Below the pieces are notes generated by a model that saw only the letters and a program-made list of their open reading frames with translations, searched no databases and had not been told where the DNA came from. Below, in pieces: positions 6,901-47,100 of a DNA stretch of 64,000 bases. The translations under genes and the position numbers were made by a program. The stretch is taken from contig NC_092677.1 of NCBI RefSeq assembly GCF_964355755.1, forward strand, positions 25,779,175 to 25,843,174, in the 5' to 3' direction. Source of the DNA: Antedon mediterranea (Eukaryota; Animalia; Echinodermata). Each line of letters starts with the position of its first letter. Position 1 is the stretch's first letter.

Positions 6901-9900
6901 AACCACGCTTTAGTTTGTGTCACGCACGCCTAAGCAAGCGACGAGATTTGGATTCGAACCTACGACCTCACGATCAAAGTACAAAGGTATTGTAACAAAC
7001 TCATGCATGCATTCGTGGTGTGAACTTCTTTTGAATATAGATAACCTTGAGCTGGTATTTAACCGTCATGTGTACTTATGTGTACTTCAAAGATATAATT
7101 GTCCCCCGAAGAACAAATGTACACTGTATTCAATTCAATTTCCTTGTCAGGGGGTTTTATTCGAACATAAATATCCCTCAGACCTGCGGTACACCCCGTG
7201 TAATTATTATTATGAAAGAACTGTTGAGTTTCTCAATGGTTCGATCAACATGCTTTGATCGTCCTCATGAGTGACAATGCAGACCAGGAAGATATAATGT
7301 GATTCAGGCCCTTATATTTCACAAAAGTAAAATTATGCCATTTCAATGTCACATAATACATGAATAGAATCGAAAAGAAACTTATTTACCTGAAAATTTT
7401 TTTTTTAAAGCAAAACATAGTTAGCTTGGTTGTTGAATCATGGAGGTATACAATTACCTCCATGTTTGAATTTAACCGTTTATTTTGTCTTTTTATAAGT
7501 GAAAACATTATTTTTCAGTATTTTTCTATACGGAAGTGAATATTATTAAAACGGCAAAATTGTCTAGAGTCTAGTCACATTATGATTTTATTCATCTCAA
7601 CTTCTCTTTAGTCAGCGTAAAACGCGATCGAATGGGGACAAGTTATTGTCTCGTAATTTTACCTGTAATTGACTGCGATTCGCAGTAATTAAGCCAGCAC
7701 CTACTAACAATAGATAACGTTTTGTCATGACAACGATAACAAGGTCATAACTAGATTTAATTCGTCACTATGACGAATTATAGGTTATATGCATTGATAA
7801 TTAAAATAAAGATAATTTATTTTTAAAAGATATTTTGATTCATTGATTTTCTCAGATTCTTTAAATAATATATAATATATGATAGGACCTTGCTAACGCG
7901 AATACAATAGCCGGTATCACAATCCGATCAAAGATCCCTCTGCGTATAATGTCATAAACCACATTTGCTGTTACATAATAATAAAGACATAAGTTATTTT
8001 TTATCTAGATTTCATTATAAATCATGTGTATAATATATACACTAAGAAATAAATTTGAACAAACAATACGGATAATAAAAAAAAAAATTTATTTCGTTTC
8101 CCAAGGTGAGACTCGATCTCGGTACCTTGAGTGCGATAGACACGAGCACACACCACCGAGCCATACACAACTGACTAAAAATTGTAGAAAAATTCCTCCG
8201 TGTATTTACTATGCAGTAACCACTTTGGTGCAGATAGATTATTACATACCGCAATGAATTATAATTTTTTACTATGATGACATCTCTAAAAATGTACAAA
8301 AATGATGCACTGTCAAACTATATACTTTTAACTTTAATATATGAACTTTTGAAGGAAGAAAGTTAATGTTAAGTTTGTTATTTTGGCCTAAGAAAATGTC
8401 ATAATTTGTTTGATTGTCGAAATGAATTTTTTTAAATTTAATATGCAATTAATTATGGCTTAATCAACTTTTGTTCCCTTAGTTTAATAATAAATCATAC
8501 ATAAGATACATACACTTCAAGAAAATTAAATAAAAAATATGTGTTCCCGAGCATTCTGACGATCTATATTAATTTTAAAATTTAGCATATTTTCACCATT
8601 TTGTTAACTTACACGTGCGTAGCCTGTCACTTTTGACGTGCTCGTATAACGCAATTACGCGTTGAAAAGTGAATAAAATATGATGATATTATTAAAGAAA
8701 GGTTGTACAACCGAAATCGGACAAAAAGAGTGCGCATTAACGTATAACGCGCAGTGCGCGTGCAAAAATCTGCGCACTCATGGCAATTTTTTAAACGCTT
8801 AAAATTGCCTGAAACGTACTCTAATTTCATCGAAAATAAATTTTGACAATTTTGAACATTTTAAGCGCGCGTACGCAAGCGTTATATGCGCTACGCACGT
8901 AATTGTATTGCCATATGATAAAATATGACCTGAAATTTATGAGTACCAAATTTTGTTTAATTGTGATTCATGCTTGTGAAGATATGATTACAAACGTGAT
9001 TTCGTAAAATCGCGCGTAGACCGCGTAATTTTTGATTACGCATCGTGAAAATATAACCACATCGATTCCTGGCCATAAGGAATATACTCTGAAAAATTGA
9101 CTTAGATAGATGAAACTGATATCAAGATAATTCACGGACAAAATAGTGCTAAGGAAAGAATAAATAAATAAATAAAGATTTTGACAGAATCAAGAGGTTA
9201 TATGCATGATAATGCATATAACCTAATAATATAACCATGGAGAAATAAGTTTCTCCATGATGATATAACTAAACAAATGAAACGGTTGAGTTGCAAGATA
9301 TTATATGATCAACAGTAAAATGAATTACAAGTATAGAAATAGACATTTTGCTATATTATCTTATGGAAAATGAGTGCTTCTTAATCCGTTCTAATCAACG
9401 TAGTTAAGCTTAGTTCCCACTAGTGACGCAACGTAGCGACGTTGGCACAACGCAAACGAGTTGACCAATGACAAGCGACAGTTCGAATAATTCATCGCTA
9501 GTGATTAGTCAAATCACTTACGTTGCGTTACGTCCTTGCGTTGCGTTCTAGTGTGAATCAAGCTTAATTCAGAACGCATTTGCGCTACGTATTCTTTTAG
9601 TTACGGTCAGTTGTTTGGCACATTGAGTTCCATGTCGACACATTGAGTTCCGTGTCGACACATTGAGTTCCGTGTCGACACATTGAGTTCAGTGTCGACA
9701 CATTGAGTTCAGTGTCGACACATTGAGTTCAGTTGGTGGGGGTTGCAATGCCAGGGCGCAGGGCAGTCTAGTACCAATACAATAATGGCCCGGGACTTAG
9801 AGGCTTGTTGCGACCTCCTAGTTCCAGTGGGAACCAAGCATTAAATCGTATATATATTTTGTATCCATTTTTAGAAGTGCATTGAATTACAGTGGAATTT

Positions 9901-11846
9901 CAACGTTCAACAACTTACAGGTATATCTGTACCCGTCTCCAAAAAAAGGAGCAATTACTATCACCAGAAAGAGACTACATGTTTTTCTCAGCCCCCAGCT
10001 GGAACACAGCATGGCGAGACCAGACGGATCACCATGGTTACCAGAAGCAGAGACATGTGCTGTCATTGGAAACGGAGGAATATTAATAGGGAGCAAGTGT
10101 GGAGATGAGATAGATGCACACGATTTGGTTTTCAGATCCAATATGGCCGACATTTCTGAATTTTTTGAAGATGTTGGTGGAAAAACTAATCTTATGAGTG
10201 TTAATATGGACAACTCGAAAAATTTAAATAAATGCGTGAGATTTTCTAAATGCCGCAGTAGATTATTACAATACATGAGACGTTTCAAAGGTACAATTTG
10301 GTGGTTTTCAAAATATGGAACGTTCGAGGCGAACAGTCATTATATTCGAAGTGTTATAGCATTAAGAAGATATTTACCCGGTACTATATACGGATACCCG
10401 AGAAAAAGTATGATACCCTTAATAGAAAAGTTAGTAGTCAAACTTTATTTTTGTCAAGTTAATCTCTTGTCCGTGCTTATTCTAATAGAGCTATTACGCC
10501 ATATATAATACCAAAGAACTTATAACACAAGAATCTCCTGTTCTTCAATTTGCATTCAAAACACAGTATCGGAAGTACAGGGTTAAAAGGTCAAACTGGG
10601 CGACGCCATTTCACAGCATGGAGCAGCGCCCCCTCCAAACTAGGAAGTCAATTACTCTACCCCCCTAGAGTATTAGCAGAACCCCTCTATGATTTTGACT
10701 TTCTAATTTGATGCGGGCGCCCTACTCCTCAGTCAATTACTCTACCCCCCCTAGAGCATTAGCAGATCCCCTCTATGATTTTGACTTTCTAATTTGATGC
10801 GGGCGCCCTACTCCATGTCTCACAATGGCGCCACCCATAGCTCTATTCTATCCCACAATGCCTTTCGAAATTGTTACGCGCTTCGGACGAACAGGAGATT
10901 CTTGTGTTATAAGTTCTTTGATAATACCGATACATTGTCTATTCAGCAGTCATTATGAATATTATACACAATTTTATTAATGATAAATATTAAGGCCTAT
11001 TTACACAGACGAGCGGCCCAACGGTAAAATTAAGCGGAAAACAAAAATATAGAATCTACTCTTACTTGAACGTTTACACGAAACTCGGAGGTTAAACGGA
11101 AACACGCTCAGGGTACAGATTTACGTGGGACAAGCACGCGATTTTCCGCTTACCGTTCGTCTGTGTAAATTGGCCTTTAGGACTAAATCGACCTTTGGCA
11201 GATTTTCCTCATTCTCACAGCAGATTTCCTCATCTTCATCGTTTCAATATGAATAGGCCTATTCACTACAGCATCACTGGACGGTTTAGTATTTCTTCTT
11301 ATACCTGTAAATGATGATGTATTTGAAAAAAATGATGAAAAAAAACAATTTAAGTTAAGATGATGACGCGCGCGTGTTACGTGCAGTGGCGTAATGCAGA
11401 AGCTTGAGGCCCCTGGTTTAGGGACGAAGTGGAGGCCGTTTTTATGATTTTTCAACATATTTTAATGCCTTATTTCTCCTCCGGGTCCTGCTCATGGGCC
11501 CTTAACTTGTAAGCTCCGCCGTTACACCACTGATTACGTGTCTATAAAGTCACGTAGTATATTATTTTATGATTATTTTTCTATTAGATTTTGGAATACA
11601 ACGAAGACACCATCGAGCGGTCTTTATCTACACGCCGTCGCCGCTTCAGCTTGTAAGAAGATTTCAATGTACGGGTTTTATCCCTTCAATCAGACGAAAT
11701 CCGGCCATGCTTTGCCGTTTCATTATTACGAAAAAGTGTCATTTAAGAATAAACACAATATACCAGAAGAGTATATGAAATTAGTTGAATTTAATAGAAC
11801 AGGTGTGATAAGATTGGTTACCAAACAATGTAGGCCTACTACATAA
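992..11846 (+). CDS. Alpha-2,8-sialyltransferase-like (ST8Sia family, GT29), spliced gene
   Basis: Exons joined in frame with GT-AG boundaries: 992-994 (ATG only, tentative), 3440-3588 (MFRRKK plus transmembrane ILIGILTTVAFWVIAVV), 4771-4872, 5729-5818 (INVTAASILR), 9875-10429 (sialylmotif L CAVIGNGGILIGSKCGDEIDAHDLVFRSN), 11588-11846 (sialylmotif S PSSGLYLHAVAASACKKISMYGF, motif III HYYE, motif VS HNIPEE, C-terminal Cys KQC typical of ST8Sia). Type II membrane topology. Confidence 0.9.
2324..3089. mobile_element. Nested cluster of PIF/Harbinger-like MITEs, family A (TIR AGC(T/G)TGGTTCCCACTAG)
   Basis: Several interdigitated copies of about 180 bp with long imperfect TIRs (gacgcaacgcaaggacgtaacgcaacgcaag), flanked by TAA/TTA. 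Confidence 0.8.
3735..3932. repeat. About 50-bp tandem repeat (4 units)
   Basis: gtcctaaat.aactaactaaactgaa..gcatt..ctgtttaatt repeated. Confidence 0.75.
4170..4660. mobile_element. Family A Harbinger-like MITE cluster
   Basis: Repeated tggttc(c/a)cactag and gtgggaaccaagc ends with the same internal sequence. Confidence 0.7.
4920..5382. mobile_element. Family A Harbinger-like MITE cluster
   Basis: Complete copy at about 4935-5113 nested in a related element ending gtgggaaccacgc at about 5378. Confidence 0.75.
5404..5582. mobile_element. Complete 179-bp family A MITE with TAA target-site duplication
   Basis: TAA(5401-5403)-agcgtggttcccactag...ctagtgggaaccaagct-TAA(5583-5585). The empty site cacgcacgccTAAgcaagcg is present at 6921-6940. 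Confidence 0.9.
5924..6912. mobile_element. Further family A-related MITE copies (about 5924-6115, 6120-6250, 6703-6909)
   Basis: agcttggttcccac...gtgggaaccacgc ends with a shared interior (aaatgcccttccaataattgtg). Other copies at about 9407-9564, 41946-42098, 54633-54773 and 63149-63338. Confidence 0.7.
7185..7290 (-). mobile_element. Degenerate third copy of the hammerhead-bearing Penelope-like repeat
   Basis: Shares gcggtacacc...aaagaactgttgagtttctc...tcgatcaa.atgctttgatcgtcctca.gagtga with 15090-15178. The core is mutated (AUGAGGA, GAAC). Confidence 0.6.
7749..9230 (-). mobile_element. About 1.5-kb Helentron-associated (HINE-like) element
   Basis: Minus strand: 5' hairpin aggttatatgcat-tatc-atgcatataacct, (ttta)n microsatellite, 3' subTIR atgcatataacct, hairpin aattcgtca-tag-tgacgaatt, then ctagtt. 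Confidence 0.6.
9618..9733. repeat. 20-bp tandem repeat (about 6 units)
   Basis: (cacattgagttc(c/a)gtgtcga)n. Confidence 0.9.
10512..10920. mobile_element. P-element-like MITE (TIR CAAAGAACTTATAACACAAGAATCTCCTGTTC), 7-bp TSD ATAATAC
   Basis: Perfect TIRs of about 32 bp; ataatac at 10505-10511 and 10921-10927; internal direct duplication of about 84 bp (10647-10728, 10731-10813). The superfamily call is an inference from the CAA terminus and 7-bp TSD. Confidence 0.75.
10993..11176. mobile_element. Harbinger-like MITE family C (TIR AGGCC(T/A)ATTTACACAGACGAGCGG), TTA TSD
   Basis: tta-aggcctatttacacagacgagcgg...ccgttcgtctgtgtaaattggcct-tta. Second copy at 54026-54222. Confidence 0.75.
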
Positions 11847-13672: not shown

Positions 13673-16600
13673 CTATAATTGTGAATGTTTTTTGCGTAGT
13701 TTATCAATTTTTTCTTTATAGTTGGATGGACTAACCAACGTATTTTGATCAATATTATATAAATCCTCTTTCATCGTTCGCACCATATCACGATCCAATT
13801 TTCTCCCACCTGTAATCATCAAACATTTATTATTATAATTGATTTTTTGCTGAATGGTAGTGACCGCACAAGTGGCAATATTTTAACATAAACAGATATA
13901 TGAATTATTCATATTTCTGTTTATGTTAAAATCATTAAGCTCTGTCTACACTATCAAACTAGTTTACTATATTTACTAATTCCAAATAAAATAAAATTAA
14001 AAAGATGTTCTACATAGTGTACTGTAAGGCTCTGTCTACACTATCAAACTGTGATGTCCCTAAATGGTAGTGATGTGCCCAAATTTTGTCACATAAAGTG
14101 GGAACCAAGCCTAAAGCTATGTCTAAACTATCAAACTTTATGTGACGAAAAATGTGATCTTCTCATATATATTATATGGACATATCATATCACTATAATA
14201 TTTAAGCATATCAAATGTTTTTTTATGTTTGAAGTTTGATAGTGTGGACAGAGCTTAAGAGTTCGAGTGTTTAAATAAACCCCACATTGAATTTGAATTC
14301 AATTGAATTGAATTGAATGTTTGCCTCTATTGTCCAAAACTACAAGCTCATGTTACGAAGGGAAATATTGCGTTTTCTTCAAGCTGTGTATTTACGCTGG
14401 GATTGATAAAGGCATTTACTTACCAATACATTTCTTTGCAATAGATTTAGATGTCAATATTAGGTTATTGACCTCATCGACCTCGTCAACAATTTCAGCT
14501 TCCAAGCACTGAGGTCCGGTAAATCGTTTGCCAAACAAAATGGCGTCACGTGCTACTTTGTTTGATTTCAATCGCAATCTTTAAATAAAAGAATCATTCA
14601 TCATAACACAATTAAGATTGTCATTATTTTATCTTTAATGTGCTTTGTCACTAAAATTTGCAGTAACTATGAACATTGTGGAGTGGAGCTGTAGCAATGT
14701 ATCTTGCTGGTTTAGATGCTTGGCTACCAATCCTAGAGTCCTGGGTTCAAATCCTGTCAGATAACAGGGTTTTTTTTCTTATGACAGAACAACTCCACTC
14801 TCAAAGACTTGTAATAATACTTTGTTTGTGAAGAGCATCTTGTGTATATGTTTGTCTCTGTGATTATTTAAGGGGGAGGGCCATTTTATCAGCCCCTAGC
14901 TTTAACAGCTATGTGGCTGCCTGGCCTCTCTGAGAAAATATAAAAATTTAAATTCTTTAATTTGCAAATATTTAGCAAGCGTTTTTGGGGTAATAGTACA
15001 CACTGTTTAGAAAAGAACTGAGTTTCTCGACGTTTCGATCAATATGCTTTGATTGTCCTCAGGAGTGAGAATGTTGATATATAAAGTTTGCGGTACACCA
15101 TGTATATTAGTTCTGAAAAGAACTGTTGAGTTTCTCAACATTTCGATCAATATGCTTTGATCGTCCTCAGGAGTGAGGAAACCGCAAACTTTACATTAAC
15201 ATTTGATTTCGCCATGCAAACATTTAAACATGCAATGCACATGGTTTATTAATTGTTATCATTTGAATGTTACTGCCTCATAAATCTGTGAAAGTTTTTA
15301 AAGAAAAATTGGACAAGTATTGGTCAAAATAATATCCTTTTTATTACCATTCTGGGCTCCAAGGCATAACTGATTATGGGTCAAAAGAGGCAAATTAGCC
15401 TACGGTATGTTGTATACACCCACACACAATAGGTTGTAATTTCAAACTAAAATCATGCAGTAAAAATGTAGTATTGTTGATCCAAAATGGTGCTACTGAA
15501 TAAAATTTTGTTTTTAAATTTATAGCTTCATGATCTAAATAACATTTGAATCACAATATTTAAGTTTTGGTCGAAAGAAACATTCTTTCTTAAAGTACTC
15601 CAAATGATTTATTTTACGGTTTTTTTGTAAATACTATTTTTGTAAAACAAAATGGTCTGTTTTGTTTCTGGACCGCTGCACCACATTTTGTGATAGTAAC
15701 AGATTTAAACTGCGTGAATAGTCAACAAATAAAAAATTCAATGAATTACATTTCGGCAGTCATAAAATTATGATCTAAAAAAAACCCAAAATATTGCAAA
15801 CAACGTGTACTGTACATTATACAGTACACGGTATTGAAATGTCGAAGTCTAGTACCTGATGAATAAAAGCGATTTTTATTATGATTTTTATCACCTTCAA
15901 AACAGTCTGTGTATAGTGTGCAAATAAAAATGTCTGGGAATGTGTTCGGTTATCATCTATCTATCTCAGCTTATAGAGTTCTGCTGTGTGATGTCACAAC
16001 GATAGATAACGCTGCATGGTTGCTAGCCAACCAAAAAATGCGTTCAACGCTACTATGTTGATAAACTGTATATATCTGTTTTTCTATCAAATTATGTATC
16101 GTAACTTGATTTTAAATATATATAAAATTAGATTATTAAAAACAAATATTTAGTGATCTTTTTAGAATTTTAGTTTGTTTTTATTGAAATTATTAAGTTT
16201 TAAAATTACTACTTCAATAGGCCTATTCCAAACGATTGGTGACCTTGGAGTCACTCAGGCAGGTTGAACGCATTTTTTTGGTTGGCTAACAACCACGCAG
16301 CGCCACCCGCTGTCGTGACGTCAGCACCGCAGAACTCTATGTACAGTGTGTAAAGTAAAATATTTTATGTTTAAATAAATAAAAGCATCTGTTTATCGAT
16401 GGAGAAATTTTGATAGCAAGACAGTTGTTGATTAAGTTATTCAGTCAAAATCAATAATATGTATACTAAATACAACAAACTCTGTATATAATTATTTTTA
16501 TTTGTGTGACGTTACAATAAACACACTTTTAAACCAATACAAACGGTAGTTAGAATATATTATCAGAATATTTATTTGAAAATTGCCTATAAAACACACA

Positions 16601-19440
16601 GCACAAGGATGAATTAGTTTTAATTGTATAAAATTATAATCTTATCTACACGGACAAAGTACAGACAAATTATATACAATATAAAAAAAACAAAAGATTA
16701 TGAAACAATACATAATGGTAGTTAAAATGGCATAAAATTCTAAATTGCAAGATTCTACTCATCCCATGCATAATGTATTTGAGGTGTTGCGTAGCGGTAT
16801 ACATTACCGGTCAATCACCTCTAGAGCGTACAAATAGGTTTCGTAACAGCTTTTATCCAGATGCTATTGAATTCTTGTCAGTATACCGAACGAGAGTGAT
16901 GTGAAACTTTGTAATTGTTTTTTTTTTCATTTATCTGTTTTTGTATATCTCATTCTCGGAGCAAACATAATTGTATGTTTTGATTAAATAAATTGAATAA
17001 ATGTATATTTTATATGCAAATGACAATAAAATTTAAAATAAGTAATTTTCCACTGATGAATGAACGAATAAAAAGCAAAAAGAATTTATAAAATACAGTT
17101 AAAAGCAGAATACACAATTAAAATCAATCTATCAATTTTTCAGAAAACCTAAATCCCAATCTAACTTTGATAGATCATAATATAGCTCTGATAGATCACA
17201 ATATAGCTCTGATAGATCACAATGTAACTCTGATAAATCGCAATGTAACTCTGATAAATTGCAATGTAACTCTGATAGATCGCAATATAGCTCTGATAGA
17301 TCGCAATGTAACTCTGATAGATCGCAATGTAACTCTGATAGATCGCAATGTAACTCTGATAGATCGCAATGTAACTCTGATAGATCGCAATGTAACTCTG
17401 ATAGATCGCAATGTAACTCTGATAGATCGCAATGTAACTCTGATAGATCGCAATGTAACTCTGATAGATCGCAATAAAATAACTCTGATAGATCCCAATA
17501 TAATAACAATACTAACTAGAGGGTACTCCGAGAGTACAAAACCTCCGCCTACTGCAAATCTTGCTGAGGTTTTTTTTTTGTGGACTTTGATATTTGACCC
17601 TGACCCTTCAAAATTTAACCACAATTATATGATGAGTCATTGATCATTGTGGCTACGTTTGGTGAGAATCGGATAAAAACTGTGGTCTCTAGGCAGTAAA
17701 ATAGTTTTTTGTTAGTTGTGACCTTGACCTATGACCCTCAAATTCGAACTCGTCCGAGCTTTTGAGGCATAGATCATTGTGTCCAAATTTGGTGAGAATC
17801 GGATAAAAACTGTGGCCTTCAGGCTGTTCACAGACACACACACAAACACCAACATACAGGGGTGAAAACATAACCTCCTTGGCGGAGGTAATAAGAACAA
17901 TGTACTGTAACTTGGATACAGAACAACTATTGACGACACATTACAGTTTATTGAAAGTACTCTTAAATAATATTAAGTTCTTACTTGGCTAACTGTATCA
18001 TAAAAGGTGAAAACTGTAGTTTGAGGTCGATTTCAGGCAGGCAGAGCCATCCGCGGTCCTTACGCATCACACGATAATCAAAGGCAAGAGCTAGAACGGC
18101 ACCTCCTGCAAAAGCGTGACCTGTCGTCGTCGTCAGAAAAAATAGAAAATTATTCAATTCAATCAATTTATTTTTGAAACATAAAACAAAGGATTAATAT
18201 TATTTGTTATGCCCAAATATGGTAGTGATATGCCCGAATATGGTAGTGATAGGACATCATCATGTCCATATATGGGCACATCACAATTTTTTGTCACAAA
18301 GTTTGATAGTGTAGACAGAACAACAAAATTTCATACCATTAATTGCGGCAACAGTTGGCATTGGAAAAAGTAATATTTGAAGTAAAACGTCTCGATAATT
18401 CTCAACACACTCATTGACATCTTCAAGCGTCGATTCGCTCATCCATTTCAGATCTAAACCGTTGCTGAAGAACTTGCCATTTCCGGTAACAATCAATGCC
18501 TTTGTGTCCGGGTTACTATAGAAATAAAATCAATTTAAATCAATTTTCCTTTTCCAATGAGTTGACTTTAAGTCCAAAATGGTTCTAAATTTTGTTTCAG
18601 AATTGACAACACAATTGGAATACCAAGATTCATATACAGTATATGGAGTTATTAAAGTCTGTAGTAATAAAAAATAAGAATGGGGTGTTTGGGGGCAAAA
18701 ATTACATATTTAACCCATTTGAGACCAAATGGTTTATTGATAATAAAATAATATTTTTTAAAAAATGGGTTATAAGTATATTAGAATTTCTAATATTAAT
18801 CACCTTTCAAAATGAAAAATAAATGTATTTTATTTTGCCTGGCTTTAATACATACATCATTGGGCCAATGACACGATCAAGTATTTATTCAGTTCAATAC
18901 AATTAGTCTACCAAGCCGGTAATGGATTTTAATCATATTTAAATACTTGATTAATAATATCTAGGCCTATATGTTTATGTTAATCCATTTAACTTTCTTC
19001 AATATTATTAAATAATTTAATAGCCTACTGGTACTGTTGCCATTGGCAATTATTAAATAATCCATTCTGTAACTGTAACGTTTAGGCATCTATTATTATA
19101 AAAGTCATGTATGTAACATGATTCAAATAGGATGTTAGCCCATTGTTAAGTTCAAAGTCCTGCCTTCACACAAAATATCACTTCCGATTGCAGGACCTGT
19201 TGTCAGGTGATACACCATCTTTTCCCGAGGTACGCCAAAAAGGGAAAAAAATTATGATTAAGATATGACGAAAACCTACCCTAAAACAACTTCTAAGCAG
19301 TGTTTTAGTGCTTTACATGAATAACTATTAAATCTATTTTCACCATAATTCATATTCAGAATCGCAAACTCTTTATCAAAGGAAACATTATAGCATTTAC
19401 TGGCACAAAGTTGGCCAGAGGTACTGGTGGCTGAATCCAT
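13673..19440 (-). CDS. Enoyl-CoA delta isomerase-like (crotonase superfamily, similar to plant peroxisomal ECI1-3), spliced gene
   Basis: Exons 19440-19280 (MDSATS...GENRFN), 18515-18337 (ALIVTGNGKFFSNGLDL...MPTVAAING), 18120-17985 (HAFAGGAVLALAFDYRVMRKDRGWLCLPEIDL), 14578-14424 (RDAILFGKRFTGPQCLEAEIVD), 13809-13673 (...KLRKKHSQL*). All phases are compatible and the crotonase oxyanion-hole motifs are present. Confidence 0.9.
14685..14945 (+). mobile_element. Degenerate tRNA-derived SINE
   Basis: B-box-like gtcctgggttcaaatcct after an A-box-like gctggtttag, with an A-rich tail. Confidence 0.4.
15024..15070 (-). ncRNA. Minimal type I hammerhead ribozyme (Penelope-like), copy 1
   Basis: Minus strand reads ctc-CUGAGGA-C-AAUCAA-agcaua-UUGAUC-GAAA-CG-UC-gag: conserved core, stem II, loopless palindromic ACGU stem III, GUC cleavage triplet and CUC/GAG stem I. 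Confidence 0.65.
15131..15178 (-). ncRNA. Minimal type I hammerhead ribozyme (Penelope-like), copy 2
   Basis: Minus strand reads ctc-CUGAGGA-C-GAUCAA-agcaua-UUGAUC-GAAA-UG-UU-gag, 108 bp from copy 1. Stem II is perfect; stem III carries CpG-type transitions. Confidence 0.6.
15973..16340. mobile_element. MITE with TIR ATAGAGTTCTGC
   Basis: atagagttctgctgtgtgatgtcac...gtgacgtcagcaccgcagaactctat, with further internal inverted similarity (ccaaccaaaaaatgcgttcaac / gttgaacgcatttttttggttgg). No clear TSD. Confidence 0.65.
17167..17495. repeat. 21-bp minisatellite (about 15 units)
   Basis: (gatagatcgcaatgtaactct)n; the source of several spurious repetitive ORFs. Confidence 0.95.
17515..17893 (-). 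mobile_element. Helentron-associated (HINE/DINE-1-like) non-autonomous element
   Basis: Minus strand: tattacctccgccaaggaggt 5' hairpin/subTIR, gt/gtct microsatellite, 3' subTIR ggcggaggt, hairpin gtactc-tcg-gagtac, then ctagtt. Confidence 0.7.
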
Positions 19441-19980: not shown

Positions 19981-22900
19981 ATGGGTGAACATCACAAGAA
20001 AGTTCTGCAACAGTACCTGAGATCACATCAATCAAAATCTAAAACACATGATGGTGAACATTCCTCCTCCTATAGGCCGAATGCCGGTGATTCAATTGAT
20101 AGGTATATCTTTTAATTAAACATACCTTAAAACCACACCCTTCCGAGATGTGCTATTATTGTACACTGTCAGTGCAGTGGTGCATCTGAGTTGTAGGCCT
20201 AACAGTATACACTCTTTTTAAGATTACTAATTAAGATTAAATTTATTTTTATACTTCAGAACAACTACTACGCTAAATGAAAAATTTAAATGGATGAAAG
20301 TTTCAAAAACAGAATCAAGCACTTCTGCTCCTAGAAATACCGCATTACGGAAGACGTTGCCAAGGATACCTGTAGCAAGACGCAAACTAAAGATTGATGA
20401 CTTACCAGATGAAATCTTGCTTATCATCTTTGAATTCCTACCAGCAAATGACCTTTTGGTGTCAGCAAGTGTTTGCAGAAGATGGTTAAAGCTGTCCAAT
20501 GATGAGTAAGTATCATTGTCACCTGACCACAACCAGTGCAGCAAGAATTGAGTAGTAATGAGTATTATGAGTGAAATTGGGGTCACCAACTCTGTGTCAT
20601 CCAGGTCAATTTAGTGTCACCAACTCTGTGTCATCCAGGTCAATTTAGTGTCACCAACTCTGTGTCATCCAGGTCAATTTGGTGTCACCAACTCTGTGTC
20701 ATCCAGGTCAATTTGGTGTCACCAACTCTGTGTCATTGGTCAAATCAGTGTCAAAACCAACTCTATGGCTGAAGAACAAAGGAGTCTACACAGACTTCAC
20801 CAGCGTAGTGACATAGTTGCTGATAATTGTAACTTGGAGAGTATATATCTAACACTTACATTGATGTGAAATAAGTGTCAAAATGTCAATATGTAATATT
20901 TCCACATGCAATGATTATTTATGTTAATTAGGTTATGATAAACTAAAATTTGATAATTCCCATAAAATGTTAAAATAAGTACATGATACGAACGACAGAT
21001 AAACATAAATGATGACAGATAAATATAAATGATGACAGATAAACATAAATGATGACAGATAAACATAAATGATGACAGATAAACATAAATGATGACAGAT
21101 AAACATAAATGATGACAGATAAACATAAATGATGACAGATAAACATAAATGATGACAGATAAACATAAATGATGACAGATAAACATAAATGCCCATGAAA
21201 ATGGTTAATTTTCTTCTTCAGTATTCTGTGGCAAGGATTGTACATAAAGTATGGACAGCTAAAGAGGAACGAATCTGTGGATGTTCAATTGAAGTGTCAT
21301 GGTGGAATAAGATGGAAACGAGAATGTATTAGAAGGTAAGAATAGAGGTTCATGGGAATGCTGATGACAATGAATATGTTATCCTAAAGCTCTGTCTGTG
21401 ATGTGCCCAAATATGGTAGTGATATGCTTAAATATGGTAGTGATATGACATCATCATGTCCATATATGGGCACATCATATTTTTTTTTCACATAAAGTTT
21501 GATAGTGTAGACAGAGCTTAAGCTGGTAATTTATTATGAGTTATTATACACAGATACATTTACAATTGTTTATGTTTTCAATCTATAGATGCATTGAGAA
21601 GAGAAACTCAAGACTTAAGTTGCTACTTAAAAAAATAAACAATTATACATTACTTCCTGGAGAAACAAAGAAGGTAATAGAGTAAGTATACATTTGTATA
21701 AACCACATGGTAATTTGCATATTTATGTGTTGTTTCCCCTTCCTCCATCCCTTAAAAGTTTCAGTTATCTATTAAAAAAAAAACCGAAAATAACTTCCAT
21801 TTTTTTCTGTTTTAAATACTACACTAGAAAACTTGGTATAAAATGGCAGTTGGTTTTAACAGACAGCGACAAGAATGAGCATATCATTGACCAATCAGAT
21901 GTCTCCCATTTTCTAACCTCCATAACAGTTCGTTGGTATAGCTTGGAGTTTCCTCCAATCAGAAACATTCGTCAAGTTGCCATATATGCCATAGCGCCTG
22001 TGTTTTTTCATAAGAATGGTAGTCCAGTTGTAAATAGGTACTATTGAGGGAAAGCATTTTATATTCAAATTTCAATTATTCAACTACAGAACAGTAACAA
22101 ATAATTAAAATAATAATATGACAATTCTACAACAGATAAAATTCTTATCTAATACAAAAGAAAGTGCATTATGATTTTCTAATGATATGATGACAAAAAT
22201 AATCATCACTGTGAAAGTGAAAGTCGTACCAAACAGGGATTGAACTCTTGGACTTGTTTAATCATTTATTTTGATTTGGAAAAAAAAAGTGATTGATAGT
22301 TCTTTTTTTAATTTAAACTTAAAATCTTGTTTCAGTCCATGTCAAAGGTCATTGCTTCTAAAGAGTAACCCACAGACGATTCTTAAAGGACAAGAAATTG
22401 GTGGAGATGACCGAGTGAGTCTTTATTACGTGCAAGGTGGTCCACTGCTTGCAGTCTGGAAGGTAAGCTTCAAGATAACGTCTTCTGGCGCACTCTCAAG
22501 CGCATAGCCACTATCGTTTATCTTTATCATCTTAAAAAAAGAGGTGGTTGGGGGAACTGTACAGAAGCTTGTTGAGAACCTTTGGTATCAATCAATCAAA
22601 ATCAACATTTATTTCCAAAATTGTGGTGTCACCAAAAAAGCAAAAGCTTGTGTCAGGGACGCCAAAACAAAACATTCAAAAGCAAACAAAACATATATAT
22701 ATAAGACACAGAAATGAAAATAACAATAAAACGTAAAGCCGTACATTTCAATTGCAGTATAAATGATATAAATACATTTTCAATTGCTAGAGGTAAATAT
22801 ATTAGCAAAAACAGTATCTCTGTGGCAGTGGCGTAATGGCCATGAGCGCTCACTGGCTAAACCCAGGGGCACCAGAACTAAGGGGGCCCCAGTGCATTAG

Positions 22901-30888: not shown

Positions 30889-33800
30889 TTATAATTTATC
30901 GTCTGTTTGTAAAACAGTGTTAATAATGTAGTTGTGTAGTGTAGCGTTTTGAAGGATTTCTAGGTGTTCCCCTCCTGATATCTCAAATTCTGAAACTGGT
31001 TGTTTTTGTTCGTTCTTCCACCTGTAGAAAACAAAACAAACATTTAAAAATCAACATATACCAGGATAATAATTACATTCGATATTTGTCCTACAGAAAA
31101 CAAAAGAAATTAGAAATGTGTAGAACAATATTAAAACATAGAATAAACAATGGGACTAAAACATTATTTCATAAAGTCACGTGGTGTAAGTGGTTATCCT
31201 AATAGTTCTAGGATGAAAATCTGTTCAATTTCTTTAAAAATGTATACCGTATATCCTCTGGTATAATCCCACTCCACTAGAACATGAAATTAGGCCGACT
31301 TTGGGGGTGGGGGGATTATACCTGGGGAAACCCTGGTTCAGGAAAAAAAATGATTGGTAAGCATTTCTTGTAAAAACTCATCTGAACTGGCTAGAGAGAG
31401 GCTAGAGTCAATAATGGGACTATACACGGGGATATGCCTGTTTGTGAAATCACACATATAAAGTAGGGGTGGGATTAGACCCAAAATGGGATTATACCTA
31501 AGGATATAAGGTACAGTATTTATCAATCTATTTATGTTCAACCTGCATAGAAACCAGTTCCCCGCAGGGATCTGGTTAATGTTCTCGATTATGATTCTAA
31601 TTAATCGTCCAATTAATCGAGTCATTAGATAGTAATACACATTTTATATTTCGCTAGGATACTAATAAACTTACTTCAGAAGATATTTTAGACTTCTCAT
31701 ATTAACTGTACCGTCCCCGTCTCCATACTTTATTGTAGGTTGCACGTCGGGAAAATCAGCATCATACGTATAATGCTCCTCTGTCGGCACATCCTTACCG
31801 TGGACAGAGAAAACCGGAACACCTTACAAAATAAATGTTAAAATATTTTTTTTAATTTACAATATTGTAAAAACATATATTTCAATTGAAATTCCCAATT
31901 TTTCCCACCTGTAGTTTAGCAAGGCAACCTAACAACAAGACACTGAACTCGCCAAGATATTAGAAACTCGTAACAGTCCTTTAATCTTATGTCTGGCTGC
32001 GACAAATACCAACAATACTGTACTATGTGCAATGTCTGTTAAGGGGTGTGGAACTGATCGTGTCGCAGCCACAGATGAACCCTTTGATCTCCAGAGCTCA
32101 GCATCCCATTAGATTGCCTTAAGTTAAGTATTTATTGTGGCAAAATTAAAACACTCAGGAATACAAATTTAACATCGCAATGGAAGTGAAAGCGCCCTCA
32201 AACAAGTATCTCATACCTGGAGGTTCCATAGCACTGATCAATGGTTTAGTATCCTTCCAAAGTTCGTAGCCAATTGGAAACTTGATATCGTTATACAACT
32301 GATGATAATCGTATGCTGTGTAGTTACGTGTTGGCGTGCTGATAATGACTTCATCTTTGTCCCACAAGCTCTGTACAGGCGCTAGAATCGCACTGCTGGG
32401 GTATGTACGCTGCGCCATTCTTGCCTTGATGGAATCAACGGCCCAAACACCAAAATTATCACCTTCAACACAAAAGTATATAATGATTATAGTGTTAGTA
32501 CAATATATGAATAAAATACTGACAGATGAGGGCATATCAATTTGATCTCTGGTGCGCGTGCGTACAACTGAGGACTAGTGCTGTTCCGCCGTACCACGTC
32601 GAGAATGTTAAAGAGTCGCTATCCAATCGGGTTTGAACTATACCATGAAAGTCCCAGTAGTCTAATGGTTAGGACATCTGCATATCCAGCAGAAGGTCCA
32701 GGTTCGAATCTCGGTTGGGGCGACTTTTTCTCATTCTCACAGATTTCCTCATTTTTATCGTTTCAAATGAATTAATCAAATTTCAGTATATCACCGGGCG
32801 GTTTTTACATACATATATACCAAATATATACAATATATCATGTAATATGCATACGTGTAAAAGCAAAGGAGCTTGTCATATAGTTGGACCTGGGGAAACG
32901 CCACCCTGTCCTGGCACTCTAAATTTTGCACATGACTTGATAACTATGTGATGTGAAATCCATGATTTCTAAACCAAGTCTCATATGAGGCTTAGGTAGT
33001 GCTGTTGGATTGGCCGACTTGAACCAAGGAGTGCATTTTAACTATCAAATCACAGTGCCACTTTTCATAGTGTTGGTTTTCATCTGTGATTGAGTAATTT
33101 AGTATATATATATAAAGTAAAAATTCAAAATGAAGTTTATACAACTATATAGTTGTATAAACTTCATTTTGAATTTTTACTTTTTTGTTAAATCAAAATA
33201 ACATACTTCTAAATTTTGTGTATTGATATCAATTTTCTGTAATACATTCCGTGTACGGTACCTGATACATAAAGTCTTAGAATTTTTGTAGCGCCACCTA
33301 GTGGTGATGCGATAGGAGCCCACGATTGTATAAACTTGTCCTTCCATGCCTGATCTTGGTGGTTGAGGAAGAAGAGGGTGTACACACAGCCTAGGCTGTG
33401 ACTAACCAACACCACTTTTGTGTTGCCATTCATCTGGTATGTCTCTTCAATGAGGGCCACTAACTTTTTAAAAAAATCCCCAGCTTCATCTGTAAATAAA
33501 AGATATTAAAAATTAATTTAAAAACTTGTTTATTTAGCAAATTTCTGGATCATATTTTTGGAATTGGCATAATTGATTTATCACTTTATTTCTTTAAAGG
33601 CAATCCCGTCACAAGGTTGTAATCTTTTTGGGATTTGCCTTCGTCCATTTTCTTGTTTTATCACTTGCCATTTTGTTTTTGTTACTTTTGTCTTTTGGAC
33701 GTAAATAAATGTTCCTTGAATTGAATTGATTTCAGAATAAAAATTCCATATATTAATATACAACAAACAATACAAAACGGAAAATCACACTAAAATAGGA

Positions 33801-36800
33801 TTTTCTCAGATTTAGTGAAGAGATTTGAAGATCGTAACAGTTCATAGTGCACCTAACAAGATCATTTTAACTATTCAAAACTATATATTAAAAAAAAAAA
33901 AACTTTCTATTATTTAAAAGTCGAAGATAGCCAGGTCTCGGGTCCATTCTATTGTCGCCACAGATTGATATCTTCATCAGTACTTCTATGAATGGATGAT
34001 TAGGTGGGAACACGAACGCTAGTTGATCATACCCAGTACCGTTTTGATCGTACGATTAATTGGGAAACCACCTCACGAACAAATAATATAATTGACTGAA
34101 TTATACCTAAATAATTACCATATTTGATCACACGCAACAAATTTTTCAGATTCTGTTCAACTTACAGAGCACAAGAAACAACTGTATGTTCTGATACGAT
34201 TTTTCGAGATTTTCTGTATAAAAACTTACTTGGTGCTAGTCGGAAATCAAACGGAGCGCCACGGACTGACACGTTTCTCGTATAACCCTTAGCGACGAGT
34301 GCATCCACTAGTCCAACATAATACATTGCTGTTAATAAAAAGAAAAATTATTCATAATTTGTTTATTAAAATATACAAAATTTATCCATTGTTTTAACAA
34401 AATGATTGTTATTATTATTATTTCTTTAATAAGTTTATAAAGATACAGAATATTTAGTAAAGGCGTCTAGTTAGTTTTCTTTCTGTTCTTTTTTTTTCTT
34501 TGTCAAGATTTACTCAAATTGTATGTTTTTTTTTGTATAAATTTGTATTACTATAATGTATTGATATTTTTCTATGTTAATGTTTTGATGTTTCTGTATA
34601 CTTTTTATACTGTTTTTATGTAAATACAATACTTTCAGCTTCTGCTGCTTTTTGTAAATATGTTTTTTTTATACCGAAATAATAAATAAATGTAATTATT
34701 TACTGTGGTTTATCCTTCTGAATTCTTTTTCTCATTACAATTAAATTCTATTCCCGTTTTTTTTAACGAAAAAATGGAAAATGTATGGTAATGCTAATTT
34801 TGATAGAAAGAAATAATAATTGTCTTTTGTGTAGCGCCTAACCAAAATAAATTTTCTCTAAAGCGCTACGACAACAAGGCTCGAACTAGGTAGAAATTAC
34901 GTAATTTTATATGCTATGTGAAGAAGATGGGTTTTAGGCAACTGTTTGAAGATGTCAATAGATAAATAAATAATCATGTGTTGATAGTAGTAATTAAGTA
35001 TTATGTATGATACTATTTTGATTAGTGTGATGTGACACTTACTGAAGCTCTCATGACTAGGATCGAACCACTCAACTGTTGACGTATTTCCAAATCCTGG
35101 CACCGTGATTTTCACACCCTTTGGAGGTGAACTTGTCCTTGTTTTTATATCATATACAAGTCTATAAATAGGAAGGATTAGGAGAGATATAGATCGGTTA
35201 GTCACCAATAACCAATAAAAGAAGAGGGTACAATAAATATAATTAGCTTTAACAACAAGGTACATACTGTAGTGGCAATACAGTACAATAAAATGTTTAC
35301 ACAATGGAATGATGTACATTTCACTAGCTTACAGTACAACCATTTTCTGATATGAGCACATATTGATTTCGCCATGCAAATGTTCAAACAAAATATGTAT
35401 TCTTTCTTCCCAAAGTTTCATTTTGTATTACAGAAAACAAAACAGGTTTAAATTGGTGATCAAAACGTAAACAATTTCATTATCACTCATTACCACAAGA
35501 ATGGAAAGGATGAGTAAGTACAGTAATACCAGCATAAATATTGCTATTATCTATAATCCTTTATCTTGTTGTACAGGAAGCCAGGAAGTGTGGTACTATA
35601 CTGTACTATATGCTGAAGACCGTTGCACCATATGGTTAATATAATTGTATGGTATGTATACCTGCTAACTTTTTCAGTGGCCAATGCGCGAGACGTTAAA
35701 TTTAAATTATATAGCGCTCTCTATGTTATTTTAACTCAAATTAACCGCTCTCTATGTTTAATTTTTTGACATATTGAGTTGGCTTTCCTGTATACAATCA
35801 ATAATAATAACTTATTTCTCAGTCAAATAAAAACAAATTACAGTTAACATTTTCTAAAATAATAGATAATAAGTTAGAATTTAGGGGTATCCCACTGGAA
35901 GCTTAAGCTTTAAAATGTGGGGACCAGGCAACATATTTAAGTACAGTAGGGTAAGGTAAGAAACATGTAAAAAATGATAAAGAACAAAAAAGGCATTTAA
36001 CTTAACGAATGCAGTAGTACACTACTGCACATCAACCATGAAATACAAATAAACATAGGCCTAGGCTATTTAAGCTCAAATTAATTAAATAACGTGCAGT
36101 CCAAGTCCCAAGTTAATTTCAACATGTTTTTCTGAATATTTTTATGGATGCGTGAAAAATAGCTACATATGCGTGAGGCATAAAAAATACACACAAGAAT
36201 TGTGCATGAGAGTTGGTACAGTAGGTATAAAGGGCCTTTCACACCTGTTCCGGCACGGTTCCAGCGAATCGAATGCCAATGTTTCGTTTTCACGACGCTC
36301 CACACGGCTATGCACCAATCGATATGCCCATAGCCGCGTAAAAATGAAACACTGACTTTCGATTGGGTTTTCCGGCGCCGGACCGGAACCGTGCCGGAAC
36401 AGGTGTAAAATTAAGAATTTAGGTCTACAATATACATTATGCTTACCTTATATTTTCAACGAAACAGTTTATAAAAGGTGGGATAAACTCGCCTACATCT
36501 AACCAGATAAAGAATGAAGTGGTGTGCTCTCGGCAGTAAAAATGTGGCGCTTCACTTTTATTCAGTGTTGCTTTTAATTGGCTACCACCATCGCCTGGCA
36601 CTGCAAAAAAATAAACACATTCAAAATGTATTGTCGCGCAAAAATATAAAATAGGAAGATTAATAAAATCAGACTTTAAATAGGCCATTTTGTAGTTTTT
36701 CACTTCTGTAAAAAAAAAACCCAAAAATAATTATTTCACATAAATAGACAAAAGAAACCATTAATTGTAACCAAAAACCATTGTCTGACAGACAATTTTA

Positions 36801-44105: not shown

Positions 44106-47100
44106 TTAAAATAAAGTCTTCTTTTTGTCCTTAGATTTCTTATCGCCCATACTCCTGTTTAAAATAAAGACAGTTATAGTTTACTTATAATATTTTATAT
44201 CTTTAATTCTGTACATATTTCTTAATTATTTAAATGGCTTTGTTTTATTTTCTATTATTGTATAATGATGATAATGACAGTCCTTTAGTGTGGTTCACAC
44301 TTGGATCCAAGCGCAACGCAAGAAAGTAAATGCTACGCAAGTAGGATGACCAATCACAATGCGATGGACCACCCAAACCGTCGAATTACTTGTGGAAACC
44401 AAGCAGTAAAGCTCGGTCTACAATATCAAACTAGTTTGACAAAAAAGTGTGATGTGCCCCAATATGGTAATATGTCAAAATGTGTTAGTATTATGCCAAA
44501 ATATGGTAGTGATATGACATCTTCGTGCCCATATATGGGCACATAATATTTTGTTGTCACATAAAGTTTGATAGTGTAGACAGAGCTTAATGTGGTGATG
44601 AGAAAGATTTGTTTTAGTGGTTATGGGGAAAATTATGAAGATAATGATGACATGACAATGATGATGAATCATATTAATATATTTAAAATGCATTACTTAT
44701 TGTTAAGCATCCTCGATCCCGACAGACGGACTGACTCATCAAATACAGCTTTGTCTTTCTCAAACTGTTTTCTCTTTTCTTCTAATTCTCGTTGCTGTTG
44801 CTCTAAACTCTTCCTCATTTGTTCATCTCGTCGTCTCAACTAAAAATTAAAAGTTAATTAAAAATTAGCTATCATCATTTGATTTATTTTATTAAATTAT
44901 TAAATAGTTTATCCATCCTGTAATTGGTGAGTTGCTCGTTGTTGAATGCGCATGGAAAAAAAAAATGATGTTTTCTCAATAGCCGGGCAAGTTCACTGCA
45001 GACTACACATTTTGGGCAAGCGCTCAGATAGAATACAGACATCATCATTTGATTTGTTTTATCACTGGCCCACCGGGCAAGTTCACCCATTTTGGGCAAG
45101 CTCTCAGATAGAATACACTGACATCACTATTTGATTTAGATATGTTTATCACTAGCCCACCGGGCAAGTTCACATATTTTGGGCAAGCCCCCAGATAGAA
45201 TACACTGACATCACTATTTGATTTAGATATGTTTATCACTAGCCCACCGGGCAAGTTCACCCATTTTGGGCAAGCCCTCAGATAGAATACACTGACATCA
45301 CTATTTGATTTAGATGTGTTTATCACTAGCCCACCGGGCAAGTTCACCCATTTTGGGCAAGCCCTCAGAAAATACACTGACATCACTATTTGATTTAGAT
45401 ATGTTTATCACTAGCCCACCGGGCAAGTTCACCTATTTTGGGCAAGCCCTCAGAAAATACACTGACATCACTATTTGATTTAGATGTGTTTATCACTAGC
45501 CCACCGGGCAAGTTCACCTATTTTGGACAAGCCCTCAGAAAATACACTGACATCACTATTTGATTTAGATGTGTTTATCACTAGCCCACCGGGCAAGTTC
45601 ACCCATTTTGGGCAAGCCCTCAGAAAATACACTGACATCACTATTTGATTTAGATGTGTTTATCACCAGCCCACCGGGCAAGTTCACCCATTTTGGGCAA
45701 GCCCTCAGAAAATACACTGACATCACTATTTGATTTAGATGTTTATCACTAGCCCACCGGGCAAGTTCACCCATTTTGGGCAAGCCTCAGATAGAATACA
45801 CTTACATCTGCTTCTGAATCTTTTAATTTCTTTTTCTTTTCCATTACTTTCATCTCAAATACTTGTTCCATCTCTGCTTCCATTTTCTTCATCTTCAAAT
45901 CGTGTTCTTTCTTTTCATCCTGGAACTGTGATAAGGGATTCTTGCCTGATACCCTGAAATTAAACAGACGTTTATAAATTAAATTTTTATTTAAAAAACA
46001 TCTGTTTCCACCGTAAAATCCCTTTTTCCTCCGAGCACTATGAGCACCTATGAACTATACTTTGTATAAAAACTTTATACAAAATCATTTATCAAATACA
46101 AATTACAGATGAAAAAAACTATGTATTAAAAATATAGCATTTGACTCTTACTTTGATGACACTTTGCGGCCTTCACCTGCGGTGATAGCGGTGAGCTTGC
46201 GACACCTGTAGTTTTCGTAATGAACGTTATTCGTCACGTCCTTCAGATCTTGCATGTGTGTTCTGATGAGCATATTTCGAAGTGTAATGAAGTCACAGTG
46301 TTCTAAATTTTCAACTGAAAATGATAAAAAAAATATTACAAATTAAGTTTTTGACATGCAAGTAATAAATGTCTTGTAAAAAAAAAACGTCTAAATATTA
46401 AATGATTACACAGAGCTTAAATGTAAAATTTAAAGGTAGTGTTCACATTTTTCTTGCATTATATTTGAGCAGCTTGGGTACATCGATGTTTGCCTGTTAA
46501 TATCATGGGTTCAAATCTTGTATATTAAGCTCTGTGTAAACTATCAAACTAGTTTGACAAAATAAAAAAGTGTGATGTGCCCAAATATGGTAGTGATATG
46601 CTTAAATATGGTAGTGATATGACATCATCATGTCCATATATGGGCACATCATACTTTTTTTCATAGTTTAGACAGTTCACTGTGTAGAACATCTTGTTGA
46701 TTTTGTTTTGTTTTTTAATTTGAAATTGGCATAGTAAATATATTATGAAACAAATTCTATATTGGGATATTAACTATAACCATTACACCGATTGTATTAG
46801 GCGCCTTGGTAAATTATTTTAAACGAAAAGAACGCGTTCAGACACATTTGCTATTGTATTACGACATTATTATTACGACATTATGTCGTAGAGGTGCGTA
46901 ACTACCATCTATAATTTTCATACCTTCTGCTACTCCCCATGGATATTGTCTTCCTCGTACCCGTTTACCGTTGACCTCCAAAACTGAGTTACTACCAACA
47001 ACAGCAAATGGTACCCTGTCCTAAAAATAAAAAAATAAATGCATCTAATATGATGTTAATTTATTAAAATTTCTCTCTAAAAAAAGAGACTCCAAAAACC

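What the first reader, a model, noticed from the sequence alone, without database searches (positions are those of the whole stretch)
15024..15192. Tandem pair of minimal hammerhead ribozymes (Penelope/retrozyme-type) on the sense strand of an ECI intron
Seen in the sequence: two copies 108 bp apart read on the minus strand, which is the strand of the ECI pre-mRNA. Their consensus is cuc-CUGAGGA-C-GAUCAA-agcaua-UUGAUC-GAAA-CG-UC/gag: the full hammerhead core, a 6-bp stem II, one extra nucleotide (C) between A9 and G10.1, a 3-bp stem I, and a loopless palindromic ACGU stem III. Copy 1 keeps ACGUC but has a G->A change in stem II; copy 2 has a perfect stem II but AUGUU. Copy 2 is also bracketed by a 12-bp inverted repeat (aaagtttgcggt at about 15084 / accgcaaacttt at 15181). 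Established knowledge: loopless minimal type I hammerheads occur in Penelope-like element pseudo-LTRs and are thought to cleave as dimers of tandem copies; tandem hammerhead repeats also define non-LTR retrozymes that yield small circular RNAs. Inference: this is a roughly 108-nt-unit self-cleaving retroelement family, and the two copies might complement each other as a dimer and cut the host intron.
Basis: partly seen in the sequence, partly recalled or inferred. Interest (0 to 1): 0.8.

Follow-up and report, generated by a model that had tools for sequence, protein, structure and literature searches.

The report
Decayed Penelope-type hammerhead pair in intron
Two copies of a known miniature self-cutting RNA motif lie 108 bases apart in an intron of a fat-metabolism gene; they belong to a common scattered repeat that is likely the tail end of a Penelope-type jumping gene, both copies are mutated, and the pair is predicted to be folded shut, so it is likely an inert leftover and not a new circular-RNA element.

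Summary
Two minimal type I hammerhead motifs (cores at 15170 and 15062, minus strand) lie sense in a 3.4-kb intron of an enoyl-CoA hydratase/isomerase gene; chance gives 0.013 per window. The motif fits the published PLE min-HHR consensus and shares stem I, the inserted C and (with Patiria) loop 2 with listed echinoderm motifs. Public contigs of two organisms show a dispersed family of at least hundreds of copies whose majority has the intact GAAACGUC. The 108-nt unit is not the family's unit: the head-to-tail junction has 0.4-1.7% of body depth. The locus is an inverted 50-nt 3' piece plus two 5'-truncated copies joined at a CATT microhomology, the described PLE insertion layout. All four substitutions against the family are CpG transitions. 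No PLE ORF was found; cleavage is untested. The scan reported the same kind of pair in other genomes before.

The parts
15181..15230 (+). Inverted copy of the family's 3'-most 50 nt (last 23 nt of the body plus the ~27-nt tail); its inner part pairs with 15070-15094 in the pre-mRNA
   Evidence: High depth over 15185-15230 and 98-99% of depth carrying the same two letters as the 15073-15094 arm; 37, 15 and 25 contigs leave into unrelated flank at 15230; pairing probability 0.999 or more
15070..15177 (-). Copy A: 5'-truncated family unit, from just upstream of stem I to the frequent 3' end CAACATT, without the tail
   Evidence: Contig pieces span 15078/15079-15177 in all runs; loose ends at 15177 (77, 28, 66 contigs) and 15079 (150, 39, 93)
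15134..15173 (-). Minimal hammerhead A: intact core and 6-bp stem II; 15.2 and 17 are U in place of the family's C (15140, 15137); predicted cut position after 15137
   Evidence: family letter is C in 92-97% (15140) and 90-93% (15137) of depth
15070..15073 (-). CATT microhomology at the A-to-B junction: it is both the end of unit A and the family's four letters upstream of CTCACTC
   Evidence: junction print; loose-end consensus begins AATG behind 15177; copy C has GCATT at that place
15010..15069 (-). Copy B: 5'-truncated unit that loses the family after about 15010 (perhaps to about 14995 with a deletion); 3-nt deletion at about 15020
   Evidence: Depth falls to single-copy level below 15010; alignment A1
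15026..15065 (-). Minimal hammerhead B: intact core and GAAACGUC, G10.1 changed to A (15054); predicted cut position after 15029
7185..7290 (-). Copy C: single decayed family member (AUGAGGA, GAAC, AUU) that keeps some family sequence upstream of stem I
   Evidence: 86% identity over 92 nt, E 6e-22
35358..35390 (+). Lone piece of the family's 3' tail
   Evidence: 88% over 33 nt, E 4e-5
14579..17984 (-). Host intron (GT...AG, 3,406 nt) of an enoyl-CoA hydratase/isomerase-family gene; exons about 18120-17985 and 14578-14424 flank it
   Evidence: Frames and splice sites; Pfam ECH_1 on the two upstream exons

Best explanation
The two motifs are minimal hammerheads carried by a dispersed high-copy repeat that is likely the 3' end (pseudo-LTR) of a Penelope-like retrotransposon, and at this locus they are likely an inert insertion scar. 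Shown: the motif, the family, its intact majority sequence, the locus layout (inverted 3' piece, unit A, unit B joined at CATT) and CpG-type damage in both copies. Inferred: a PLE reverse transcriptase made short 5'-truncated cDNA pieces and joined them by template jumps, giving an inverted piece and a partial tandem in one event; the 108-nt spacing is set by the CATT microhomology plus a 2-nt insertion. In the parent element the ribozyme would cut as a dimer of two pseudo-LTRs, after GUC. In the host pre-mRNA the inverted piece is transcribed first and is predicted to close a long helix around copy A, while local hairpins bury A's core and substrate strand, so cutting would be rare; a slow cut in an intron would likely not stop splicing.
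For: Motif fits the published min-HHR consensus (extra nucleotide after A9, G10.1-C11.1, long helix II, short helix I, palindromic 15.2-16.2). Against the S. purpuratus(2) and P. miniata rows of that supplement, stem I CUC/GAG, the inserted C and CGU are the same, loop 2 AGCAUA is identical to Patiria's, and stem II differs while all 18 of 18 cells (3 sequences x 6 pairs) stay paired, 3 by two-sided change (by eye). Family: 1,954, 500 and 1,651 contigs laid on 185 nt in three runs; rough lower bound 180-360 copies (the tool warns depth is no copy number). Layout matches PLE insertions: 5' truncation, partial tandem, inverted 5'-truncated copy at the 5' end, tail at one end only (passages, PMC8557442); two 3' ends about 27 nt apart (15079 side and 15230). 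Four of four substitutions are CpG transitions. Predicted cost of the A-on-B site: 33.5 kcal/mol in context, 17.1 without the inverted piece, against 14.9 +/- 3.7 for 60 shuffles of flanks and linker, 0 of 60 as high. Min-HHR monomers were inactive and dimers weak in vitro. Introns cut by slow hammerheads were still spliced (passages, PMC2995048).
Against: No RT or GIY-YIG sequence was tied to this family: none in 73 ORFs of 50 aa or more in 5-21 kb and no motif hit in six frames of the window; no genome was available. The two echinoderm rows most like it are not marked as PLE-associated in the paper. Many copies seem to start within a few letters of 15177, which is sharper than random 5' truncation. 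The tail is about 27 nt, a little under the 30-40 described. No compensatory stem II change reaches 2% inside the family. The folding model has no term for the hammerhead core, charges even the family-letter dimer 13 kcal/mol, and forbids the pseudoknot that would let the site form beside the long helix (opening cost 17.4 kcal/mol in that case).
Confidence: 0.7

Rival explanations
1. The family is a short non-autonomous element of its own (about 110-140 nt, a mini pseudo-LTR) with a defined RNA start just upstream of stem I, moved in trans by a PLE enzyme and inserted mostly as monomers; the locus is still a decayed complex insertion.
For: Loose ends pile up at 15177 (77, 28, 66 contigs) with a consensus that keeps only about 4-6 family letters before fading into AT-rich flank. 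Non-autonomous PLE derivatives are described.
Against: A share of copies continues upstream with a common sequence for at least 30 letters (33 and 38 contigs behind 15073; X5; copy C). The pile-up at 15177 is partly forced, because the window leaves the family there. Loose ends show at most 30 letters.
Confidence: 0.15
2. The pair works: copy A's intact core and copy B's GUC strand form one active site and cut the host intron 450 nt before the 3' splice site often enough to affect the gene's splicing or mRNA level.
For: All conserved core letters are present in the A-on-B site, with one U-G wobble in stem III, and the fold is nested. The motifs are sense to the gene. U at position 17 occurs in many published min-HHR rows.
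Against: Damage is CpG decay; predicted occlusion; stem I and III duplexes are worth about -0.4 and +0.1 kcal/mol in isolation; weak activity of min-HHR dimers; slow intronic cuts are tolerated.
Confidence: 0.07
3. One reading: a family of 108-nt tandem units that self-cleave to monomers, circularise and reinsert (non-LTR retrozyme).
For: Two head-to-tail units each with a hammerhead; retrozyme families can have many monomers.
Against: A circle template would put the end-to-start junction in most copies, but it has 0.42, 0.54, 0.50 and 1.67% of body depth in four runs and no joint going back about 108 is among the 15 shown of 42. Family sequence extends beyond both ends of the unit. Described retrozyme monomers are about 300 nt with canonical hammerheads. 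TRF finds no array.
Confidence: 0.04
4. A hairpin-rich DNA element (MITE-like) in which the hammerhead letters are incidental.
For: The locus folds as a long inverted repeat enclosing four or five short hairpins (z -6.05); Rfam finds no hammerhead.
Against: Chance rate 0.013 per window; full match to the min-HHR consensus and to echinoderm rows; the inverted arm joins the body at many different points in other copies (joints from 15107-15175 to 15183-15204); no target duplication.
Confidence: 0.03

Closest known systems
Minimal type I hammerheads (min-HHR) of metazoan Penelope-like element pseudo-LTRs (Cervera and de la Pena 2014, PMC4209133; read parts 1-2 of 4 and supplement file 2 part 2 of 3), above all the S. 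purpuratus(2) and Patiria miniata rows
   Same: Core, extra C after A9, G10.1-C11.1, 6-bp helix II, CUC/GAG helix I, loopless CG palindrome, loop 2 AGCAUA (Patiria); mostly single dispersed copies
   Different: Different stem II letters and A7-G in the core (CUGAGGA); here two copies lie 108 nt apart on one strand and each is damaged; no ORF linked
Complex insertions of EN+ Penelope-like elements (Craig et al. 2021, PMC8557442; passages)
   Same: 5' truncation, partial tandem, inverted 5'-truncated copy at the 5' end, tail at one end only
   Different: All three pieces are tiny (50, 108, about 60 nt); the downstream copy has no ORF and also lacks the 3' end; tail about 27 nt
Non-LTR retrozymes (Cervera and de la Pena 2020, PMC7229834, passages; Li et al. 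2026 preprint 10.64898/2026.07.22.740005, part 1 of 5 and passages)
   Same: Non-coding, type I hammerhead, two head-to-tail units at this locus
   Different: Minimal rather than canonical hammerhead, 108 nt rather than about 300 nt, and the family is not organised as tandem units

Membership tests
PLE-type minimal hammerhead (min-HHR) | Core CUGANGA ... GAAA ... NUH | tested here: met
   Both copies; family majority GAAACGUC
PLE-type minimal hammerhead (min-HHR) | [quoted passage not shown] | tested here: met
   C at 15163 and 15055; feature listed
PLE-type minimal hammerhead (min-HHR) | G10.1-C11.1 pair, long helix II, short helix I | tested here: met
   Copy A and family: 6-bp helix II, 3-bp helix I. 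Copy B has lost G10.1
PLE-type minimal hammerhead (min-HHR) | Palindromic 15.2-16.2, no loop 3 | tested here: met
   ACGU in copy B and in 92-97% of family depth; AUGU in copy A
PLE-type minimal hammerhead (min-HHR) | Compensatory changes in helix II | tested here: inconclusive
   None at 2% or more inside the family beyond CpG changes and one U-A to U-G change in X5; present against two published echinoderm rows, whose common descent with this family is not shown
PLE-type minimal hammerhead (min-HHR) | Self-cleavage as a dimer | not testable with these tools
   Needs an in vitro assay
Penelope-like element | ORF with RT and GIY-YIG endonuclease | tested here: inconclusive
   Absent near the locus (73 ORFs; motif scan), as expected for truncated ends; the rest of the genome could not be searched
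Penelope-like element | 5'-truncated copies, partial tandem, inverted 5' copy, tail at one end | tested here: met
   against the description
Non-LTR retrozyme | Family organised as head-to-tail tandem units | tested here: not met
   Junction 0.4-1.7% of body depth; TRF no array
Non-LTR retrozyme | Canonical type I hammerhead with loop 1-loop 2 contact in a monomer of about 300 nt | tested here: not met
   3-bp helix I, no loop 3, 108-nt spacing; the 2026 preprint also admits minimal motifs
Non-LTR retrozyme | Abundant circular RNA | not testable with these tools
   No run on record as RNA and only contigs were available

The most novel reading that the evidence does not exclude
The family is an active mini-element of about 110-140 nt moved by a Penelope enzyme, its ribozyme cuts in vivo (some copies would then begin at the cut site, as the 14 contigs that stop at 15136 in run X1 hint), and at this locus two individually crippled copies rebuild one working active site that cuts the host intron at 15029, a natural case of ribozyme complementation inside a gene.
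Probability: 0.07. Interest if true: 0.6.

Novelty: new member of a known kind. Interest (0 to 1): 0.17.

Why it matters
As it stands it adds one more family to a widespread, described class of retrotransposon-borne minimal hammerheads, so it matters little. Its use is as a compact test object: a 240-nt locus where the dimer model makes a sharp prediction (a cut after 15029 but hardly after 15137) and where removing the inverted 50 nt should switch cutting on. In vivo cleavage by metazoan min-HHRs was not shown in the 2014 paper read here, so a positive result would count.

Tried and rejected
No host genome is held, so no genome-wide copy count, covariance model or PLE search was possible. Rfam: no hammerhead model hit. 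Two exact-pattern scans of metagenome contigs: 0 hits. Sequence look-up in earlier scan findings: nothing; nothing near the locus. No RNA holder is listed on record; X5 is only guessed to be RNA, so nothing is claimed on expression or circles. Target-site duplication: none, at most 2 nt shared between the left flank and 22 candidate right ends. The '2 letters left out at 15077' row (depth 4,387 in X6) was first read as repeated tandem junctions and rejected, because the family's own tail gives the same letters there. A loop-2 variant at 15154 (15-25% of depth) does not appear, even for the shared run X5; unresolved and not used. Whether organism B has the insertion at the same site could not be told (63 joints not shown). 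Lunse et al. 2017 on PLE hammerhead dimers is not held; it is cited only through the review PMC6765202 (passages). The host phylum was not tested.

Full report
Observation. The minus strand carries two copies of a hammerhead-like motif 108 nt apart. Copy A (core 15170-15164) has a perfect 6-bp stem II and reads GAAA-UGUU-GAG; copy B (core 15062-15056) reads GAAA-CGUC-GAG but has A in place of G10.1. Both have CUC before the core and one extra C after A9. A descriptor for loopless type I hammerheads (3-bp stem I, at least 5 pairs in stem II, palindromic stem III) finds these two and nothing else in the window, and 0.013 hits per window in 150 composition-matched random windows. Four exons of an enoyl-CoA hydratase/isomerase-family gene lie on the same strand with GT-AG introns (ECH_1 hits on two exons; the name ECI itself was not tested). 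The pair sits in the 3,406-nt intron 17984-14579, 450-600 nt before the acceptor. Rfam has no hammerhead hit here.

More copies. A third, decayed copy lies at 7185-7279 (86% over 92 nt; AUGAGGA and GAAC in the core) and a lone 33-nt piece at 35358-35390. No genome is held and two metagenome scans found nothing, so I used public assembly contigs: nine runs of two organisms in three studies hold the region. X1 and X3 are one sample and may be the window's source. I laid six of the nine runs (X3, X5, X6, X9; X1, X5, X7). On 185 nt, 1,954, 500 and 1,651 contigs were laid. Peak depth divided by 31 and by the depth of unique-flank contigs gives a lower bound of about 180-360 copies, without the division some thousands; the tool warns that depth is no copy number, so I claim only 'hundreds or more', in both organisms.

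The family's sequence. At 15140 and 15137 the family has C in 92-97% and 90-93% of depth, so the majority reads GAAACGUC with the perfect ACGU palindrome, and one search lists no variant of 2% or more at G10.1. The four substitutions by which the window departs from the majority (15140, 15137, 15101 in A; 15054 in B) are all CpG transitions; three of three in A falling on the 12 CpG bases of 99 has P 0.0014 under uniform placement. A also has 2 extra letters near 15077 and B a 3-nt deletion. Minor variants in the family are likewise mostly at CpG (15102, 15136, 15139, 15144, 15145; 1-18%), including the catalytic G12 (2.5-12.6%). C3 to U occurs at 2.4-2.5% with no matching change at G8 listed. 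There is no compensatory change in stem II at 2% or more, which is what one expects of copies of one master and so neither proves nor refutes the fold. The loop variant at 15154 seen is missing and was not used.

The motif is of a described kind. Cervera and de la Pena (PMC4209133; I read parts 1-2 of 4 of the text and part 2 of 3 of supplement file 2; file 1 was not searchable) define min-HHRs of PLE pseudo-LTRs by a long helix II, short helix I, a nucleotide between 9 and 10.1, G10.1-C11.1 and palindromic 15.2-16.2, mostly as single dispersed copies. All are met. Their alignment lists S. purpuratus(2) and P. miniata motifs with the same CUC/GAG stem I, the same inserted C and CGU, and in Patiria the identical loop AGCAUA; their 6-bp stems II differ from ours yet all 18 of 18 cells pair, three through two-sided changes (by eye). 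Neither row is marked as found inside a PLE. An earlier scan note calls this genome likely a feather star; I did not test that.

The 108-nt unit is local. If the family moved as 108-nt circles or arrays, most copies would contain the end-to-start junction. Depth at the junction (15077) is 0.42, 0.54, 0.50 and 1.67% of body depth in the four runs. On a single-unit reference, none of the 15 joints shown (of 42) goes back by about 108, and ends run into unrelated AT-rich flanks: 77, 28 and 66 contigs behind 15177 and 150, 39 and 93 before 15079. Family sequence extends past both ends of the unit: upstream, a shared stretch of at least 30 letters in part of the copies (behind 15073; copy C), and downstream a tail of about 27 nt. 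That tail is present in the window, inverted, at 15181-15230: 98-99% of depth there carries the same letters as the 15073-15094 arm, and 37, 15 and 25 contigs end at 15230. The A-to-B junction falls on CATT, which is both the frequent 3' end of the unit and the four letters upstream of CTCACTC. TRF sees no array and I found no target duplication. An inverted 5'-truncated copy next to a partial tandem, with a tail at only one end, is the layout described for PLE insertions (PMC8557442, passages). Other copies show body-to-inverted-tail joints at other points. No RT or GIY-YIG trace was found: 73 of the 86 ORFs of 50 aa or more in 5-21 kb were scanned against Pfam (the 13 left out were minisatellite, low-complexity or known-gene frames), and recalled motifs gave no hit in six frames of the window. 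The PLE origin is therefore inferred from motif and layout, not shown.

Could the pair cut? In context the fold is disfavoured. The inverted piece pairs with 15070-15094 at probability 0.999 or more and encloses A; A's core is buried in a 6-bp hairpin (-7.1 kcal/mol, against -4.1 for B's) and its substrate strand in another (-4.3 against -0.6). Forcing the A-on-B site costs 33.5 kcal/mol in the ensemble, 17.1 without the inverted piece, and 13.3 with family letters and no inverted piece; 60 shuffles of flanks and linker cost 14.9 +/- 3.7, none as much as the real context. If the long helix stays and the site forms as a pseudoknot, opening the needed strands still costs 17.4. The model lacks core tertiary energy, so only the differences count. 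Published min-HHR monomers were inactive and dimers weak in vitro (review PMC6765202, passages), and introns cut by slow hammerheads were spliced normally in mammalian cells (PMC2995048, passages).

Verdict. A real minimal hammerhead of a known class, in a new dispersed family, at a locus best read as a decayed complex insertion (0.7). Rivals: a short non-autonomous element with a defined start (0.15), functional intron cutting by complementation (0.07), a 108-nt retrozyme (0.04), an incidental motif in a DNA element (0.03). Earlier scan notes describe the same kind of pair with an inverted lock in other genomes; they are unchecked and I give them no weight as evidence. Four literature searches were for context; I make no claim that this family is absent from print. 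Novelty: new member of a known kind. Interest 0.17.

Noticed in passing
window 15083-15129 (-): The family's 3' part holds a hairpin like the histone mRNA stem-loop (AGUUCU-UUUC-AGAACU); Rfam Histone3 19.2 bits, E 0.015, below the gathering score of 34. Broken in copies B and C.
   Followed up: no
window 15136, run X1: 14 contigs leave the family exactly at the first base after the predicted cut site; may be alignment clipping at the window's own mismatches.
   Followed up: partly
window 7185-7290 (-): Third, decayed family copy with a broken core and some upstream family sequence.
   Followed up: yes
window 35358-35390 (+): Lone tail piece of the family, flanked by a short inverted ACATAT/ATATGT.
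   Followed up: partly
window 15973-16340: Inverted repeat with arms of about 76 nt, 82% alike, 214 nt apart, in the same intron; MITE-like.
   Followed up: no
window 17087-17503: 21-nt minisatellite in the same intron.
   Followed up: no
window 14690-14862: Another high-copy repeat: very high depth at 14800-14862 next to a tRNA-like head with a B-box on the + strand at about 14690-14760 (by eye); likely a SINE.
   Followed up: no
window 32651-32722 (+): tRNA-like gene, Rfam 45.4 bits.
   Followed up: no
window 9822-11843 (+), 20231-20506 (+), 33212-33505 (-): Neighbouring genes: sialyltransferase (GT29), F-box protein, LCAT-family enzyme.
   Followed up: partly
window 44967-45808 (-): Tandem repeat of about 84 nt that copies the end of a septin-like exon (by eye).
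   Followed up: no
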